A stretch of 61,403 nt of DNA, counting the filler, from Anaerolineae bacterium (GTDB taxonomy: Bacteria > Chloroflexota > Anaerolineae > Epilineales > Epilineaceae), in assembly GCA_029262755.1 (NCBI GenBank). It is 6 parts of 6 records of this genome, joined end to end, with 100 filler letters (N's around TTAATTAATTAA, not from the genome) between each part and the next. Parts side by side here need not be neighbours in the genome. Positions count along the whole stretch, not along the records: positions 39,198 to 52,846 come from JAJCYU010000115.1; positions 52,947 to 56,729 come from JAJCYU010000118.1; 4 more parts are not named here. One strand, given 5' to 3'. Below, piece by piece: positions 42,201 through 54,200 of this stretch. Position numbers: made by a program. The stretch's first letter is position 1. Each line of letters starts with the position of its first letter.

Positions 42201-45200
42201 TCGGCGCCGTCCAACGCGCCGAACGACCGGCGGACGCGACACGAGCGCTGATCGCCGCGTGGCACGCGGACGCTGGGGGGCGCGGCTCGGACGGCTAGGC
42301 GTGCGTGCAGGACGTATCGCGGCACAGCGCAGTGCCAAGGATCGCGGATCGGTTCGATTGCGTCTCGACGTCGCCGATCGTCATGCCGGACGCGTGGCCC
42401 CGCTACGCCGAAGGAGCGTGCCTACCCATCGGCGCCCTTCGTATCGGTCGCATCCGACGCGACCTCCACGCCCGCTCGGTGCAGCGTCCACCGCACGACG
42501 TATGCTCTCGCTCGGTCAGAACTCCTCGCCCGTATCGAACTCGCCGTCCACGTCCAGCGCGTCATCGTCGTCGGGCTCGACGTCGACGTCCTGCTCGCCG
42601 TCCATGTCCAACTCGTCCTCCTCGTCCGGCGCGTCCTCGACGTCCAACTCACCGTCCACGTCCGGCACGCCCTCCTCGTCGGGCGCGTCCTTGACGTCCA
42701 GCACGTCGTCCTCTTCGGTCACGGCATCGACGTCCAACTCGTCATCCTCGTCCAGCACGTCGTCTTCGTCGGAGGCGTCGTCAGCGACCATCTCGTCTTC
42801 CACACCCAGCGCGCCATCCTCGTCCAGTGCGCTCTTGACGTCCAACTCGTTGTCTTCGTCGGCGGCGACGTCACTGTCGAGAGCGCCACCATCGTCGCGC
42901 GCGCTACCTTCGCCGAGTGCGGCCGTCACGTTCAACGCGTCGTCCTCGCCCGACGCTCCGGCCTCATCGGGCGCGAGGTTGACGTCCAACTCGCTGCCGT
43001 CGTCCGGTGCGAGGTTGACGTCCAGTTCGCCGCCGTCGTCAGGCGCGACGTCGACGTCCAACGCGCCGCCGTCGTCGGGCGCGACATCGACGTCCAACGC
43101 GCCGCCCTCGTCCTCCGCAACATCGACCTCGTCCGCGCCCACATCGTCCGCGCCGCCGTCACCGCGACGTTGTGCGGCGCCCAGCGGACCGTCCTGCGTC
43201 GCGTCCTCCTCCTCCTCGGGCCACGCGCCGCGCGGTCCCACGCGCAGGCGGTAGATGCCGCGGAAGTCGTCCGGGTCGGCAGGCTTGCCCTTGCGCAGGA
43301 TGGTCACGCGCTCCTCGTGGGCCAGATGGGTGGCCGTCAGGCGGATGCGCTTGAGCAGCGACTGCCAGTCGATATCGAGGATGGCGCGGGCCACGTCTTC
43401 CGGGCGGACTCGGCCTTCGGGGCCGGCGGCATCCACCATCGTCAGGAGCTTTTCCTCCACGGCTTGGTCGCTCACCCGCGGTCTGCGCCGCTTGGGGGAC
43501 CCACCGACGCGTCCCGCCGACCCGCTGTTGTTCGCGCCTCGCGCATTGCTCATGTTGTGTACTCCGCGTTGATCGTGATGTAGTCGTGCGTCAGGTCCGT
43601 GGTCCAGACCGTGGCGCTGCCGCTTCCATCAGCGAGATCGAGTAGAAGGCGAAAGGAATCGCCCGCCATGATGTCCGCCGCAGCCCGCACATCGAAGCCG
43701 GAGGCTGCACCGTCGGCGGCAAGTTGGAGCGCGTCGGGGTCTTCGTCCGCGTTCGGAGCGGCCGAATCGGGGGCGAGCCACAGCGAAAGGCGCGCGGCGT
43801 CGAGCGGCACACCGGCGCGCCCGGCAGCGGCCAGCACGCGGCCCCAGTTCGGATCCCCGCCCGCGAAGGCCGTCTTGACCAACGGCGACGTCGCGATGGT
43901 GCGGGCGATGGTGCGGGCCGCCGCGTCGCTAGGTGCGCCGCGCACCTGCAGCGTCACGAAGCGGCTTGCGCCCTCGCCGTCACGTACGATCGCACGAGCG
44001 AGGTGCTCGCACAACTGGGCGAGCGCCGCCGCGAACAGAGCTTCGTCGTCCGCGCCTTCGACGAGCACGTCGGAAGCGCCGGAGGCCAGCAAGAGCACGC
44101 TGTCGTTCGTGCTTGTGTCGCCGTCGACGCTGATCGCATGGAAGCTGCGATCGACCGCGCGGGCCAGGTGGTCGGAGGCCTGCGCGGGCGATACCTGCGC
44201 GTCGGTCGTCAGCACGGCCAGCATGGTTGCCATGTCCGGATGGATCATGCCCGAACCCTTCGCGATCCCGCCGATGGTCACGCGACCGCCGGCGAGCGCG
44301 ACGGACACCGCGCCGTGCTTCACGCACGTATCGGTGGTCAGGATCGCCCGGGCTGCGGCCAGACCTGCCTCGGCACTCGACCCAAGCGCGGTGGTGGCCT
44401 TCTCAATACCGGCGAGCACACGCTCGGTGTCCAGCGGTACGCCGATCACACCGGTGGATAGCACGAGCACCTGCTCCGCCGGGCAGCCGATGCGACGCGC
44501 GACATCCGCCTGCATCGCGGCGGCCGCCGCGTCGCCGGCGGGGCCGGTGCAGGCGTTCGCGTTGCCGCTGTTGGCGATTACGGCCCGCGCCCGTCCGCCG
44601 CTTGCGGCCAGCGCGGCGCGGTCGAGCGTCACGGGCGCCGCCGCGACCTGGTTGCGCGTGAACACGCCGGCCGCGGCGCACACAGCATCGGCCAGAATCA
44701 ACGCGATGTCGGGCGCGCCCGAGCGCTTCAGACCTGCCGTTGCGGCGCCGGCCTGGAATCCGGCCGGCGTGATCACCGACCCGTCCTCGATCCAGCGCAC
44801 AGTGCCTGGCGCGCCCGTTGCGTGCTCAGTCACGCTTGAACTTCGAGAAGTCTGGCGCGGCGTAGCGGGTCTTCCCGCCACCCGAGACGTCCATCATGGC
44901 TTGCACCTTCATCTGCAGGCCGAAGAGCCGAATGAAACCGGCCGCGTCGGACTGATCGTAGACATCGTCCTCGCCGAAGGTCGCGAAGTCCTCGCGGTAC
45001 AGGCTGTTGGGGCTGTAGCGCCCGTCGATGATGACGGAGCCCTTGTAGAGCTTGAGCTTCACCCAACCGGTGACCGTGTGCTGGGTCTCGCCGATGAAGG
45101 CCTGCAGGCTCTCACGCAGTGTGTGGTACCACTGGCCGAAGTAGACCAGCTCCGCGTAGCGCAGGGCCATCTGCTCCTTGAAGTGCATCGTTTCCCGGTC

Positions 45201-51200: not shown

Positions 51201-54200
51201 GCTCATGACCCCGCCCTCCACGAGCACTCCCGGTACGTCGGTCAGCAGCACGAGCTCCGTGTCGAGCGCGGCGGCAACGGCCGCCGCGGCGTCATCGGCG
51301 TTTACGTTGTAGGCCTCGCCGTCGAGACCGAGGGAGACGGGGCTGATCACGGGCACGACGCCCGCCGCGAGCGTTTCGCGCAGCACCTCGGCGCGCACGT
51401 GGACGATCTCGCCCACGCGGCCCAGGTCGCCATCCGGATGGATGCGCGGCGTGCAGCGCAGCAGGCCGCGGTCGATCCCGGACAGGCCGAGCGCTTCCAC
51501 GCCGCCGGCGAGCAGGGCGCGCACCAGGCGTTTGTTCGCATCGCCCGAGAGCGCCATCTCCACCGCCGGCATCGCCTGCGGCGGTGTGACGCGCAGGCCG
51601 TCGATCTTGTGGGCCTCGTGGCCCAAGGCGGCCTGGAGCGCGGCGATCCCGTCGCCGCCGCCGTGAACCAGTACCGGACGTTCGGCCTCGGGGAGTGCGG
51701 CGATCCACGCGGCCAGCTCTGCGAGCAGCGCCGGCTCGTCCAGCAACCGGCCGCCGAGCTTGAGCACGCGGGTCATCGTAGGCCCTCGGTCTCGGCCAGG
51801 CCGCACATCACGTTCATGTTCTGCACCGCCTGACCGGCGGCACCCTTGACGAGGTTGTCGATCGCCGAGCGCAGGAGGATCGTCGCGCCGTCCGGCGAGG
51901 GCACGAGATCGAGCGCGATCACGCAGCGGTTCGTGCCGACGACGTGGTTCAGGCTCGGCTCGACGCCGGGCGGCAACAGCCGCACGAAGGGCTCGTCCGC
52001 ATAGGCGCGAGCGTAGCGTGCACGGAGCCGATCGGCGTCCGCTTCCCCGGCCAGCGGCACGTAAATCGTGGACAGGATGCCGCGGCGCACCGGCAGTAGA
52101 TGGGGTGTGAAGAGCACCGAGGGTGCGCGCACGCCCACGCGATCCCTTGCCGCGACGTTGTCGCCGTCGACGTCCCTCACGATGCCCCCGTCGTTTGCGA
52201 CACCCTCGCCCCCGTCCGCCATCCCGCCCGGCGCAACGTGCTCGCCCCACCAGCGGGTGACGAGCTGTTCGATCTCCGGCAGGTGGCGGTGGCTGCGTCC
52301 GACGGCGTATGCGTTGAAGTTGTCCGCGACCTCGACGAAGTGGGTGTGCTGCTTCGGCGCGCGCCCCGCACCGGACACGCCGGATTTGCTGTCCGCGATG
52401 AAGGGGCCCCGCAGCAGGTGGTTGATCTCGGGATCGAGCAGCAGCGGGCCGAGGGCCAGCAGGATGCTCGTGGGGTAGCAGCCGGGGTTGGCCACCAGCC
52501 GCGCGCCGGGCAGCTGGTCGCGCGCATACTCGGTGAGGCCGTAGACGGCCTCGTCCAAGAGCGCGGGCACGGGATGCGCGACGCCGTACCACGCGGCGTA
52601 GCGGTCCGCGTCGCGGAGGCGGAAGTCAGCGCTGAGATCGACGACCTTGGCCCCGGCCTCCAGCGCCCGCGCGGCGGTCGGGGCGGCCGCGGCGTGCGGG
52701 AGGCACAGGAAGGCCACGTCCAGCCCGTCCAACGGCGCCTCGTCGTGCGGCACGAGGGCCAGCGGGGGAGCGCCGGGTATCACATCGTCCAACGTCCGGC
52801 CGGCGTAGGTGCGCGACGTCGCGAAGACCGTCTCCGCCCCGGGATGNNNNNNNNNNNNNNNNNNNNNNNNNNNNNNNNNNNNNNNNNNNNTTAATTAATT
52901 AANNNNNNNNNNNNNNNNNNNNNNNNNNNNNNNNNNNNNNNNNNNNAGGCCGTTGTCGCCCACCTGCTCGCACTGACGGCACGTTGGCCGGACGACCTGA
53001 CCACGAATGGTGGCGACGCGCCGTGTGGCAGCGAGAGCAGCGACCCGGGTGACAGCGCGGGGCTCGCGTGATCCGCGGGACGGCGACGTTCCTGTTGGCC
53101 GTAGGCGTGCCGCTCGCGCTCGCGGCCGCTGTGGTATCGATCCTGGCCACCCCCGCCGCCGTACGCATGGAGTACGAGCGGCCGGGCTTCCCGCCGTCCG
53201 TAGGCATGTCGCACGAGCAACGCGCGGAGCTCGCCGTGGTCTCCACCCGCTACGTGGTCGGCAACGCGACGACGGCCGAGCTGGAGGCGCTGCGACGGCC
53301 CCTGCCCGACGGCGGTGACGCACGCGATGCGCTCTACGCGGCCGACGAGGTCGAGCATCTGCGGGACGTGCGGGTGCGGATCACGTGGCTCCGACGAGCC
53401 GGGTTGCTCGCGGGGCTGGCGCTGGCCGCCGCGTGGCTCGTGCCCGCCTGGCGCCCGACGGCCGCACGCGCGAGCGTGTGGGGCGGCGGGATGACGGTGG
53501 GCCTCATCGCCCTGCTCGGGGCCGGGATTGCGGTCGCCTGGTCGTGGCTCTTCACCACGTTTCACGTCCTGCTCTTTCCGGAGGGCACCTGGCAGTTCGC
53601 GGCCGATAGCGGCCTGATCCGGCTCTTCCCCGACGTCTTCTGGTCGGACGCCGCGGTCGCGCTTGTCGGCGGCGTTGCGCTCGGCGGCCTCGGGATCGCG
53701 CTCATCGGTAGGGCCCATGCACGACGTCGGTTCGTTCCTACGCGCAGGAGAAGACGATGAGCGACGGCCTGCCCGACACCAGCCCCCTTGCCTACCGGAT
53801 CGCCCTCGGGGCGCTGCGCGCCTTTTTCGACGGCGGCTACATTACTACCCACATCCAAGGTCGCGAGCACATGCCGCCGGCCGGCGTTGCGGCCATCATG
53901 CCCATCAACCATTCCAGCGCCTTGGACATTGTGGCCGGCCACGTCGTGGGTCGGCCGGGATTCTTTGCGATCAAGCGCGAGTCGGTGGAGGTTCCGCTCG
54001 TCGGCCGCTTCCTACGGTCGATCGGCGGGATACCCATCCAACGGGACGAGCAGGACGTAGCGGCGCTGCGCGAGATGAGCGCCGCTCTACGTACGGGCCA
54101 CATTCTGGGCATCGCGCCCGAAGGGACGCGCAGCAAGACGGGCCGGCTCGGCCACTTCGATCCCGGCTTCATCTGGCTGGCTGCGCGGACCGGCGCCGTC

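What a model noticed while it worked through the whole genome (the two positions that open the first line are those of the whole stretch)
43550..52846. Arginine operon with a short N-acetylglutamate synthase fused to ArgG (a 'G-NAGS') and an ArgB-ArgD fusion
In the cluster argC / argB-argD / (GT-C membrane protein) / GNAT-argG / argJ, argininosuccinate synthase carries an N-terminal GNAT domain of the short-NAGS type and acetylglutamate kinase is fused to acetylornithine aminotransferase. I read the GNAT-ArgG protein as a new class of N-acetylglutamate synthase, the counterpart of the ArgH-fused H-NAGS of Moritella/Vibrio, coupling the first and the penultimate step of arginine synthesis. New would be a sixth NAGS type, common in Chloroflexota and annotated only as ArgG.
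Evidence so far: g01103 (C115:5629-7575,-) Acetyltransf_1/7 29-104 + Arginosuc_synth 236-623; g01105 (C115:10336-12579,-) AA_kinase 1-233 + Aminotran_3 352-736. Residues 1-230 of g01103 hit NCBIfam PRK07757 (6e-39), the NAGS tail of PRK12308 ArgH(A) at positions 478-614 of 624 (3e-26), PRK07922 and PRK05279 amino-acid N-acetyltransferase and, among solved structures, M. tuberculosis short NAGS 5yge/5yo2/6add (7e-9) and N. gonorrhoeae NAGS 2r8v (4e-6) first. All 120 best database hits have GNAT + ArgG domains, mostly ~600-650 aa, mostly Anaerolineae/Chloroflexota. The 2015 NAGS review (passages read) lists classical, S-, O-, H- and C-NAGS but no ArgG fusion.
(Added by a program. Inside this text positions count along the whole contig: they may not be those of the stretch shown here. 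"Call 12" and the like, gene names such as g00115 and contig names such as C1 are that model's own, and its searches are not shown. The text may have been shortened before it was handed on; [...] marks where a part breaks off. The agent that wrote the report below was given it as the finding of a first reader that could run no searches.)

Follow-up and report, generated by a model that had tools for sequence, protein, structure and literature searches.

The report
Short acetylglutamate synthase fused to ArgG
In this Chloroflexota arginine operon a small acetyltransferase of the kind that makes N-acetylglutamate has merged with its downstream neighbour, argininosuccinate synthase; this is a new fusion of known enzymes that recurs in related bacteria, not a new kind of enzyme.

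Summary
On the minus strand of contig C115 lie argC (cut by the contig end), an ArgB-ArgD fusion, a GT-C-like membrane ORF, a GNAT-ArgG fusion, argJ and a DUF3253 gene. The GNAT is a short NAGS-type domain. It matches PRK07757 and the ArgH(A) tail. It is 43% identical, without gaps, to a bona fide ArgH(A) tail. Its AlphaFold model's seven best PDB neighbours are all NAGS structures.

Relatives change the interpretation. The GNAT is normally a separate gene directly upstream of argG in Anaerolineae arg operons (argC-argB-argD-GNAT-argG-argJ). Among the 80 nearest GNAT loci, 33 are fused in frame, 33 are adjacent but separate, 3 lie 503-619 nt upstream of argG, and 11 show no ArgG. On the GNAT tree the fusion was gained or lost at least three times. 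Most fused ORFs, this one included, keep argG's own Shine-Dalgarno and ATG. The same lineages also hold ArgB-GNAT-ArgG, ArgG-GNAT, GNAT-ArgD and ArgB-ArgJ fusions.

Best reading: a priming NAGS for the ArgJ cycle, fused to ArgG by stop-codon loss between neighbouring genes. This is a new architecture of the S-/H-NAGS family, not a sixth catalytic class. No activity has been tested. No paper describing the fusion was found in nine searches.

The parts
51773..52846 (-). argC (N-acetyl-gamma-glutamyl-phosphate reductase), 5' end missing at the contig end
   Evidence: Semialdhyde_dhC_1 E 3.2e-45 and Semialdhyde_dh E 1.2e-12. N spacer starts at 52847. Its stop overlaps the ArgB start as ATGA.
49533..51776 (-). 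argB-argD fusion ORF, 747 aa. ArgB domain about 51078..51776, a 98-aa Pro/Ser-rich linker, ArgD from the ATG at 50783.
   Evidence: AA_kinase and Aminotran_3 in one ORF. TIGR00707 441.9 bits against cut-off 410. Linker and internal ATG read. 14 of 50 long ArgB homologues share the ArgB+ArgD architecture. The ArgB core starts at residue 1, so there is no N-terminal helix.
46987..49296 (-). Membrane ORF (769 aa) with a low-complexity insert, GT-C/PMT_2/DUF2142-like, lying between argBD and GNAT-argG
   Evidence: No Pfam hit at E<=0.01. Weak DUF2142 hit, E 1.4e-4, below cut-off. Language-model neighbours are PMT_2/DUF2142 clusters, score 0.98. Absent from the same position in relative G290.
46816..46846 (-). 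Terminator-like hairpin with a T5 run just upstream of the GNAT core. A promoter-like site lies at 47013..46984.
   Evidence: one of each found, not above the shuffle expectation. No Rfam match. Fold z-score -1.28. Function unknown. It bears on the choice of start codon.
44826..46862 (-). GNAT-ArgG fusion ORF, 678 aa from GTG 46862. Alternative start GTG 46805. The caller's start at 46772 truncates the fold.
   Evidence: No stop codon between GNAT and ArgG.
46362..46814 (-). GNAT domain of the short-NAGS/arg(A) type, with the C-terminal [20 protein letters not shown] motif
   Evidence: AlphaFold model pLDDT 95.6. The top 7 PDB neighbours are all NAGS structures. L33, E71, G87, K132, C137, C140 and C146 are invariant in 73 sequences.
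46095..46361 (-). Linker of about 90 aa, low complexity, predicted disordered. It contains an AAGGA (46103..46107) 8 nt upstream of the retained argG ATG (46092..46094).
   Evidence: pLDDT 25-35 over residues 169-249 of the full-length model. DNA read. Met245 is nearly invariant in the alignment of 11 fusion proteins. SD+ATG is retained in 30 of 38 fused rows.
44826..46094 (-). ArgG (argininosuccinate synthase) domain, the only ArgG found in the genome
   Evidence: PRK00509 618.7 bits against cut-off 334. One PF00764 match in the 84%-complete genome. The four motifs I defined from this sequence read as intact.
43550..44881 (-). argJ (ornithine acetyltransferase), the only copy found
   Evidence: ArgJ Pfam E 6.4e-138. 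NF003802 467 bits against cut-off 351. One match in the genome.
42516..43553 (-). DUF3253 protein with a long acidic repetitive tail. Its start overlaps the argJ stop (ATGA).
   Evidence: PF11625 E 7.8e-19. Coordinates and translation.

Best explanation
The operon encodes the acetyl-recycling (ArgJ) route to arginine. The N-terminal 150-residue GNAT domain is a short N-acetylglutamate synthase of the S-NAGS/arg(A) family. It uses acetyl-CoA to make the first N-acetylglutamate that primes the ArgJ cycle. The C-terminal part is the organism's only argininosuccinate synthase.

The two are joined because the GNAT gene lies immediately upstream of argG in the ancestral Anaerolineae operon (argC-argB-argD-GNAT-argG-argJ). 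Its stop codon was lost, so the former spacer became a disordered linker of about 90 residues. argG's own Shine-Dalgarno and ATG are still present inside the ORF. The cell therefore probably makes both the long GNAT-ArgG chain and free ArgG, which would leave the small NAGS tethered to some subunits of the ArgG oligomer.

No substrate channelling is expected, because N-acetylglutamate is not an ArgG substrate. ArgB-ArgD arose in the same way.

Shown: the architecture, the homology, the fold, the gene context, and the recurrence of the fusion. Inferred: NAGS activity, production of two products, and the priming role.
For: 1. Family. PRK07757 5e-43 over positions 3-151 of 153, the ArgH(A) tail of PRK12308, and PRK07922/PRK05279/TIGR01890. 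PDB hits: M. tuberculosis short NAGS 1e-13 and N. gonorrhoeae NAGS 7e-10. 43% identity without gaps over 150 residues to the tail of P0012, which scores 787 bits on PRK12308 against a cut-off of 657. Moritella-type ArgH(A) complements E. coli argA (PMC1382215 abstract).

2. Fold. Model pLDDT 95.6. Foldseek ranks 1-7 are all NAGS entries: 5yo2, 5yge, 2r8v, 3d2p, 3e0k.

3. Residues. In the alignment, N. gonorrhoeae NAGS Leu314, Arg316 and the proposed base Glu353 (PMC4490483) align with L33, R35 and E71. L33 and E71 are invariant in 73 family members.

4. Context. All 80 of the nearest GNAT loci carry arg genes beside the GNAT, typically in the order ArgC ArgB ArgD GNAT ArgG ArgJ.

5. Need. The genome holds one ArgJ, one ArgG, ArgH and OTC. 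The classical-NAGS model hits only this GNAT and ArgB, both under the cut-off.

6. Fusion by adjacency. Of the 80 loci, 33 are fused, 33 are adjacent but separate, 3 have argG 503-619 nt downstream and 11 show no ArgG. The fused state needs at least 6 changes on the GNAT tree, and at least 3 are forced by starred branches. SD+ATG before the ArgG core is retained in 30 of 38 fused rows and in 33 of 43 separate rows. In the window, AAGGA lies 8 nt before the ATG. The linker is predicted disordered. Other neighbour fusions occur: ArgB-GNAT-ArgG, ArgG-GNAT and GNAT-ArgD. Among 50 long ArgB homologues, 14 are ArgB+ArgD, 15 ArgB+ArgJ and 11 ArgB+GNAT.
Against: No enzymatic or genetic test exists for any member of the argG-linked clade.

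The PRK07757 score (146.7-147.9 bits) is just under the curated 154.

The C-terminal arm differs from classical NAGS. Nothing alignable corresponds to Arg425 and Ser427 of the N. gonorrhoeae enzyme. An invariant three-Cys motif of unknown role stands there instead.

The characterised short NAGS has a very high Km for glutamate, up to 600 mM (PMC4490483), so glutamate need not be the true or only substrate.

ArgJ could be bifunctional, and this cannot be told from sequence (PMC1382215).

The genome is only 84% complete, so another NAGS or ArgG could lie unassembled.

Production of two products is inferred from DNA signals alone.

Counts include a few duplicate genomes present in both collections (for example L019=L065 and L018=L053).
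Confidence: 0.6

Rival explanations
1. The GNAT is not a glutamate acetyltransferase in vivo. It acetylates another amino acid or a protein lysine (for example on ArgG), or it merely senses acetyl-CoA or arginine. N-acetylglutamate would then come only from a bifunctional ArgJ.
For: ArgJ lies in the same operon and matches the model named 'bifunctional'. The characterised short NAGS binds glutamate very poorly (PMC4490483). Arg425 and Ser427 of classical NAGS have no counterpart here, and an unexplained invariant Cys motif stands in their place. The ArsN2 and phosphinothricin acetyltransferase families also score, more weakly. The title of PDB entry 5yo2 shows that a short NAGS binds L-arginine.
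Against: The domain matches NAGS families first, by both sequence and fold. It shares 43% identity with the ArgH(A) tail type that complements argA (PMC1382215). The aligned Glu-binding Arg and the catalytic Glu are conserved. The gene sits inside arg operons in 80 of 80 loci, next to argJ in many of them. That fits the known pairing of a priming NAGS with a recycling ArgJ.
Confidence: 0.2
2. The fusion is functional coupling. ArgG serves as the oligomeric scaffold or allosteric partner that the small NAT domain needs, in the way the kinase-like domain serves classical NAGS and ArgH may serve H-NAGS.
For: The review leaves open whether ArgH plays the role of the AAK domain and whether short NAGS needs partners (PMC4490483). 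The GNAT-argG pair is conserved, fused or adjacent, in 66 of 80 loci. In the Thermoflexales clade, 7 of 12 fused rows have no ATG within 12 codons before the ArgG core. Six rows there carry substitutions in the SGGLDTS loop. A second argG homologue sits directly upstream in 11 of that clade's 13 rows. In the one I scanned (L093) it is PRK05370-type, at 807.7 bits.
Against: The linker is long and predicted disordered. argG's own start signals persist in most fusions. Fusion and separation alternate among close relatives. The same GNAT type also fuses with ArgB, ArgD, ArgH or the other end of ArgG. That points to neighbourhood rather than to one specific partner.
Confidence: 0.15
3. Artefact: a frameshift, an assembly error or a mis-called ORF in a high-GC metagenome bin creates apparent fusions.
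For: The genome is a fragmented bin of 428 contigs at about 68% GC, where stop codons are rare. The linkers look like translated spacer DNA.
Against: In-frame GNAT-ArgG with no stop occurs in 33 of 80 independent species genomes and in 11 database proteins from several sources. ArgB-ArgD occurs in 14 database proteins.
Confidence: 0.02

Closest known systems
H-NAGS / ArgH(A) of Moritella and other marine gammaproteobacteria (NCBIfam PRK12308)
   Same: It has the same NAT subfamily: 43% identity without gaps over 150 residues, including the [19 protein letters not shown] tail. Here too a short NAGS is fused to a late arginine enzyme encoded next to it.
   Different: The partner is ArgG rather than ArgH. 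The NAT is N-terminal rather than C-terminal. A linker of about 90 residues retains an internal start signal. The organism is a Chloroflexota with ArgJ. Activity is untested here.
S-NAGS, the stand-alone short NAGS (M. tuberculosis Rv2747, PDB 5yge/5yo2; NCBIfam PRK07922 and PRK07757)
   Same: A single NAT domain of about 150-170 residues without a kinase-like domain. It is the best PDB match by sequence (1e-13) and by fold (ranks 1-3 and 5). The nearest relatives of the window's GNAT are stand-alone proteins of 150-250 aa.
   Different: Here it is covalently joined to ArgG. The C-terminal three-Cys motif lies beyond the stretch that aligns with the M. tuberculosis chain (query residues 7-122). 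Whether that chain has a counterpart was not examined.
Acetyltransferase genes adjacent to argG/argH in Thermus thermophilus and Deinococcus radiodurans (Xu, Glansdorff and Labedan 2006, PMC1382215)
   Same: An arg(A)-like gene is linked to the argG/argH genes as separate cistrons. The same state is seen in 33 of 80 loci here, and G325 has argG-argH-GNAT.
   Different: In the window the stop codon is gone and one polypeptide results. The gene order is GNAT-argG rather than argG-argH-(A).
Bifunctional NAGS/K and classical ArgA (kinase-like AAK domain followed by NAT)
   Same: The same-family relative G290 and the nearest named locus L045 carry ArgB-GNAT-ArgG in one frame, which gives the AAK-NAT order.
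   Different: In the window ArgB is fused to ArgD instead, and the GNAT has no AAK domain in front of it. The classical NAGS model scores far below its cut-off.

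Membership tests
Short NAGS / arg(A)-type NAT domain (S-NAGS, H-NAGS tail; NCBIfam PRK07757, PRK12308 tail, PRK07922) | A single GNAT fold of about 150 residues, closest in structure to NAGS NAT domains, with no kinase-like domain in front | tested here: met
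   Model pLDDT 95.6. Foldseek ranks 1-7 are NAGS structures. There is no AAK domain in the ORF.
Short NAGS / arg(A)-type NAT domain (S-NAGS, H-NAGS tail; NCBIfam PRK07757, PRK12308 tail, PRK07922) | Full-length sequence similarity to members with experimental support | tested here: met
   43% identity without gaps to the tail of P0012, which itself passes the PRK12308 cut-off. E 1e-13 to Rv2747 chains. P0012 is a database relative of the tested Moritella protein, not that protein itself.
Short NAGS / arg(A)-type NAT domain (S-NAGS, H-NAGS tail; NCBIfam PRK07757, PRK12308 tail, PRK07922) | Score above the curated cut-off of the equivalog model PRK07757 (154 bits) | tested here: not met
   146.7 bits and 147.9 bits, a narrow miss. 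The nearest stand-alone relatives P0017 and P0018 also miss (143 and 131 bits). ArgH(A) tails pass at 164-178 bits.
Short NAGS / arg(A)-type NAT domain (S-NAGS, H-NAGS tail; NCBIfam PRK07757, PRK12308 tail, PRK07922) | Glutamate-binding and catalytic residues of NAGS (N. gonorrhoeae numbering: Leu314, Arg316, Glu353, Arg425, Ser427) | tested here: inconclusive
   L33, R35 and E71 align with Leu314, Arg316 and Glu353 (PMC4490483). The HMMER alignment ends before Arg425 and Ser427. The window has the Cys motif there.
Short NAGS / arg(A)-type NAT domain (S-NAGS, H-NAGS tail; NCBIfam PRK07757, PRK12308 tail, PRK07922) | Genomic association with arginine biosynthesis genes | tested here: met
   80 of 80 nearest loci have arg genes beside the GNAT. 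The window's operon shows the same.
Short NAGS / arg(A)-type NAT domain (S-NAGS, H-NAGS tail; NCBIfam PRK07757, PRK12308 tail, PRK07922) | Acetyl-CoA:L-glutamate N-acetyltransferase activity, or complementation of argA | not testable with these tools
   This needs expression and an assay.
H-NAGS (ArgH(A)) | [quoted passage not shown] | tested here: not met
   The partner is ArgG and the NAT is N-terminal. ArgH is a separate gene on contig C212.
Classical NAGS (ArgA, TIGR01890) | AAK domain plus NAT domain in one protein scoring above 202.85 bits | tested here: not met
   TIGR01890 hits only the GNAT (55.6 bits) and ArgB (52.9 bits), as separate pieces.
Argininosuccinate synthase (ArgG, PRK00509/TIGR00032) | Score above the curated cut-offs over the full length | tested here: met
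   618.7 bits against 334, and 493 bits against 268.2. The four motifs I defined from this sequence read as intact.
Acetylglutamate kinase + acetylornithine aminotransferase (ArgB, ArgD) | AA_kinase and class-III aminotransferase domains above their cut-offs in one ORF without a stop | tested here: met
   131.7 bits against 24.9 and 370.4 bits against 30.5. TIGR00707 441.9 bits against 410. The ORF is continuous.

The most novel reading that the evidence does not exclude
ArgG is becoming, or already is, the structural and regulatory partner of the short NAGS, repeating the route by which classical NAGS arose from a kinase plus a NAT domain. In the Thermoflexales clade, 7 of 12 fused rows have no ATG within 12 codons before the ArgG core. 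Six rows show substitutions in the ATP-binding SGGLDTS loop. A second argG homologue sits directly upstream in 11 of the clade's 13 rows. It is of the other (PRK05370) type in the one I scanned. The fused ArgG there may serve mainly as a scaffold for NAGS. In the window's lineage the long and short products would form mixed oligomers that place arginine-sensitive NAGS on ArgG. ArgB here lacks the N-terminal helix of arginine-sensitive kinases.
Probability: 0.15. Interest if true: 0.7.

Novelty: new variant of a known kind. Interest (0 to 1): 0.45.

Why it matters
Short NAGS enzymes are poorly understood. The characterised one binds glutamate very weakly, and reviewers have asked whether such enzymes need protein partners (PMC4490483).

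Natural fusions of the same small domain to ArgG, ArgH, ArgB and ArgD act as Rosetta-stone evidence. They tie the widespread 'N-acetyltransferase' family with the FPEKVWxDC motif to arginine biosynthesis. At least 592 stretches in species-representative genomes carry that motif.

In practice this fills the apparently missing argA step in pathway reconstructions of Anaerolineae, where these proteins are labelled only as argininosuccinate synthase. The fused and split forms in close relatives also provide ready-made constructs for testing whether tethering changes NAGS kinetics or arginine feedback.

Tried and rejected
- Binding test. I sent the ArgG domain (alignment A1, residues 245-666) and the GNAT domain (A3) to the complex predictor. 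The verdict was 'no answer' (score 0.00, mark 0.32). It counts neither for nor against binding.
- Full-length fold. With only 11 aligned rows the model was mediocre (mean pLDDT 65.4). I used it only for the disordered linker.
- Leader before the GNAT gene. A promoter-like and a terminator-like site were found, but not above shuffle expectation. There was no Rfam match and the fold z-score was -1.28. I left this as a note.
- Another NAGS in the genome. The AAK hit on contig C72 lies next to mevalonate diphosphate decarboxylase. From that neighbour I take it to be an isopentenyl phosphate kinase, not ArgB-GNAT. The hit on C212 has no GNAT.
- G325. Its 635-aa open frame around the GNAT is not a fusion. 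ArgH and GNAT are in different frames.
- Papers not held. The 2007 MMBR arginine review, the 2005 Rv2747 paper and the papers behind the Rv2747 structures could not be read. The arginine-binding residues of short NAGS could therefore not be checked.
- My first working start (46826) is a GTT codon, not a start. The 666-aa construct used in searches is a sub-translation of the ORF.

Full report
**What is there**

The window is a chain of contigs joined by N spacers. Contig C115 covers 39198..52846, and the spacer starts at 52847. GC content is about 68-70%.

On the minus strand the ORFs read as follows:
- argC, 51773..52846, with its 5' end lost at the contig end.
- One 747-aa ORF, 49533..51776, with an AA_kinase domain and a class-III aminotransferase domain (ArgB-ArgD).
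- A 769-aa membrane ORF, 46987..49296.
- One ORF ending at 44826 with a GNAT domain followed by both argininosuccinate synthase domains.
- argJ, 43550..44881.
- A DUF3253 gene, 42516..43553.

ATGA overlaps join argC to argB and argJ to the DUF3253 gene.

The caller's start for GNAT-ArgG (46772) removes the first strand of the fold. GTG 46862, with AGGAG 11 nt upstream, or GTG 46805 fit better. My working construct began at 46826. That is not a start codon, so '666 aa' in the calls is a sub-translation.

**The GNAT domain**

By NCBIfam it matches PRK07757 over positions 3-151 of 153 (5e-43, 146.7 bits, just below the curated 154). It also matches the C-terminal tail of the ArgH(A) model PRK12308 (positions 462-614 of 624), PRK07922, PRK05279 and TIGR01890.

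Among solved structures the first hits are the short NAGS of M. tuberculosis (1e-13) and the NAGS of N. gonorrhoeae (7e-10).

A database protein that passes the ArgH(A) cut-off (P0012, 787 bits against 657) is 43% identical to the window's GNAT. The match runs over 150 residues without a gap and includes the tail [21 protein letters not shown].

An AlphaFold model built on 73 relatives has pLDDT 95.6. Its seven best PDB neighbours are all NAGS entries.

In the alignment, Leu314, Arg316 and the proposed base Glu353 of the N. gonorrhoeae enzyme fall on L33, R35 and E71. The residue roles come from passages of PMC4490483. L33 and E71 are invariant in the 73 sequences, as are K132, C137, C140 and C146.

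Arg425 and Ser427 of the classical enzyme have no counterpart. The three-Cys tail stands in their place, and its role is unknown.

**The genome**

The bin is 84% complete, in 428 contigs. It holds one ArgG (this one), one PRK07757-like GNAT (this one), one ArgJ, one ArgH (unfused, on another contig) and an OTC. The classical NAGS model hits only this GNAT and ArgB, both far under the cut-off. The other kinase-family hits are not NAGS.

**Relatives**

In a sample of 401 genomes of the phylum, 122 have a GNAT match at E<=1e-12. The 401 include five genomes flagged unpublished, none of which is listed with a GNAT match.

A script examined the 30 best loci. In-frame GNAT-ArgG without a stop occurs in 6 genomes: G000, G290 and G386 of the window's family, plus G322, G121 and G346. 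In 8 others the GNAT is a separate gene 34-305 nt upstream of argG.

Of the four other long open frames around a GNAT in that sample:
- G142 is ArgG-GNAT, with the GNAT at the C-terminus.
- G293 and G160 are GNAT-ArgD.
- G325 is unfused argG-argH-GNAT.

The best 80 are almost all Chloroflexota: Ardenticatenales, Promineifilaceae, Thermoflexales, Anaerolineales, Roseiflexaceae and Herpetosiphonaceae.

Of these 80 loci:
- 33 are fused in frame.
- 33 have the GNAT directly upstream of argG as a separate ORF.
- 3 have a gap of 503-619 nt.
- 11 have no ArgG within 2.5 kb.

All 80 carry arg genes beside the GNAT. The usual order is argC-argB-argD-GNAT-argG-argJ, and in Roseiflexaceae it is argC-argB-GNAT.

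The representative search with the GNAT alone returned mostly stand-alone proteins of 150-250 aa among its best 150.

**History of the fusion**

I built a tree of 113 GNAT rows. Three rows with a stop in the hit were left out, six ArgH(A) tails were added, and a few genomes occur twice because the two collections overlap. The fused state needs at least 6 changes, and at least 3 are forced by well-supported branches.

There are three separate fused groups:
- The window's group of 4 rows (support 98).
- A Thermoflexales group with 12 of 13 rows fused (support 100).
- 23 fused rows, mostly Promineifilaceae and Ardenticatenaceae, within a 32-row group (support 81).

Three ArgH(A) tails branch next to the argG-linked group.

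Inside the fused ORFs, an ATG preceded by a Shine-Dalgarno-like motif still stands before the ArgG core in 30 of 38 fused rows. The figure for separate genes is 33 of 43. The window has AAGGA 8 nt before the ATG at 46094. Met245 is nearly invariant in the alignment of 11 fusion proteins.

The linker is low in complexity and is predicted disordered, with pLDDT 25-35 over residues 169-249.

**Other fusions in the same lineages**

In G290 (same family) and in the nearest named locus L045, ArgB, GNAT and ArgG lie in one frame without a stop.

Among 50 long homologues of the window's ArgB:
- 14 are ArgB+ArgD.
- 15 are ArgB+ArgJ.
- 11 are ArgB+GNAT. In the one where that GNAT matched an NCBIfam model, it was a different, YpeA-like model.
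- 3 are ArgB+ArgR.
- 1 is ArgB-ArgR-ArgJ.
- 1 is ArgB-ArgR-ArgG.
- 5 are other combinations.

Two contigs carry both a GNAT-ArgG and an ArgB-ArgD protein, judged by equal contig lengths.

**Mechanism**

The simplest account is that the GNAT is the priming N-acetylglutamate synthase of an ArgJ-based cycle. Its gene merged with the next gene when its stop codon was lost. This pairing of a short NAGS with a recycling ArgJ is the known arrangement (PMC1382215, passages; PMC3827942, abstract).

Both a long and a short product are likely. Channelling is not expected.

ArgB here starts at the first residue of the kinase core. It therefore lacks the N-terminal helix of arginine-sensitive kinases (PMC4490483). 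The title of PDB entry 5yo2 shows that a short NAGS binds arginine. Feedback may therefore act on the GNAT, but this is inference.

**Rivals**

The alternatives are another substrate or a regulatory role for the GNAT, a real scaffold role for ArgG, and artefact. The last is contradicted by the many independent assemblies.

The scaffold idea gains some colour from the Thermoflexales group:
- Seven of its 12 fused rows have no ATG within 12 codons before the ArgG core.
- Six rows have Thr or Asn for the first Ser of SGGLDTS, and one of them also has Gly for the Asp.
- An argG homologue lies directly upstream in 11 of the 13 rows.
- In the one I scanned (L093), that upstream gene is a second complete ArgG of the PRK05370 type.

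The motifs are my own, taken from the window's sequence, so this is a hint only.

**Literature**

Nine searches listed no paper that describes a GNAT-ArgG or an ArgB-ArgD fusion. A tenth attempt failed on a term-syntax error.

I read passages of Xu 2006, the 2015 NAGS review, the 2022 gut-microbiome reconstruction and the GapMind 2026 preprint. None mentions the fusion. Xu 2006 does report acetyltransferase genes next to argG and argH in Thermus and Deinococcus.

The 2007 MMBR review and the 2005 Rv2747 paper were not available. Supplements were not consulted.

**Verdict**

The NAGS-type assignment is well supported by homology, fold and context, but is untested biochemically.

It is a new domain architecture of a known enzyme family. 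It arises repeatedly from a conserved gene pair, and it is one of several neighbour fusions in Anaerolineae arg operons. It is not a sixth catalytic class.

Noticed in passing
L132:7660-10365 (G290, same family as the window) and L045: ArgB, the NAGS-type GNAT and ArgG lie in one reading frame without a stop. This is a triple fusion, giving the kinase-NAT order of classical NAGS followed by ArgG. In G386 ArgB is in another frame.
   Followed up: partly
L093:965-4294, and L022, L031, L085, L102, L103, L111, L114, L116, L121 (Thermoflexales group): An argG homologue sits directly upstream of the GNAT-ArgG gene in these loci. In L093, the only one scanned, it is a second complete argG of the E. 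coli-like PRK05370 type. In 7 of the group's 12 fused rows no ATG lies within 12 codons before the fused ArgG core. Six rows have substitutions in the SGGLDTS loop.
   Followed up: partly
L130:588-2867 (G142); L131:1160-3970 (G293); L135 (G160): In another family of the phylum a NAGS-type GNAT without the Cys tail is fused to the C-terminus of ArgG (G142) or to the N-terminus of ArgD (G293, G160).
   Followed up: partly
database proteins P0172-P0183, P0186-P0214: The window's type of ArgB occurs fused to a GNAT (a YpeA-like PRK03624 match in P0172, the one where that GNAT matched a model), to ArgJ, to ArgR, and as ArgB-ArgR-ArgG. The ArgB-GNAT form could be yet another route to N-acetylglutamate in Anaerolineae that lack the short NAGS.
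   Followed up: no
window 46987..49296 (-): A 769-aa membrane protein lies between argBD and GNAT-argG. It has a Ser/Thr/Gly/Arg-rich low-complexity insert. It has weak DUF2142 and PMT_2-like (GT-C) features. It is absent from this position in relative G290.
   Followed up: partly
window 46816..47013 (-): A promoter-like site (TTGGCC-18-TAGAAT) overlaps the stop of the membrane gene. A 27-codon ORF with five Arg codons follows (my own reading of the DNA printed; no tool checked it). Then comes a 9-bp GC-rich hairpin with a T5 run just before the GNAT core. None of this is statistically supported, there is no Rfam match, and it is not present in G290.
   Followed up: partly
window 42516..43553 (-): A DUF3253 protein has a 240-residue acidic, repetitive Asp/Glu-rich tail. 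Its ATG overlaps the argJ stop (ATGA), suggesting co-translation with the arg operon.
   Followed up: no
window 46332..46440 (-) and alignment A3: Three Cys (C137, C140, C146) and K132 in the tail FPEKVWxDCxxCPxxxxCDE are invariant in 73 family members, including the ArgH(A) tails. This could be a metal site or a disulfide. Its role is unknown.
   Followed up: no
window 52847..52946 and elsewhere: The window is several contigs joined by N runs around TTAATTAATTAA. Features must not be read across these joints.
   Followed up: yes
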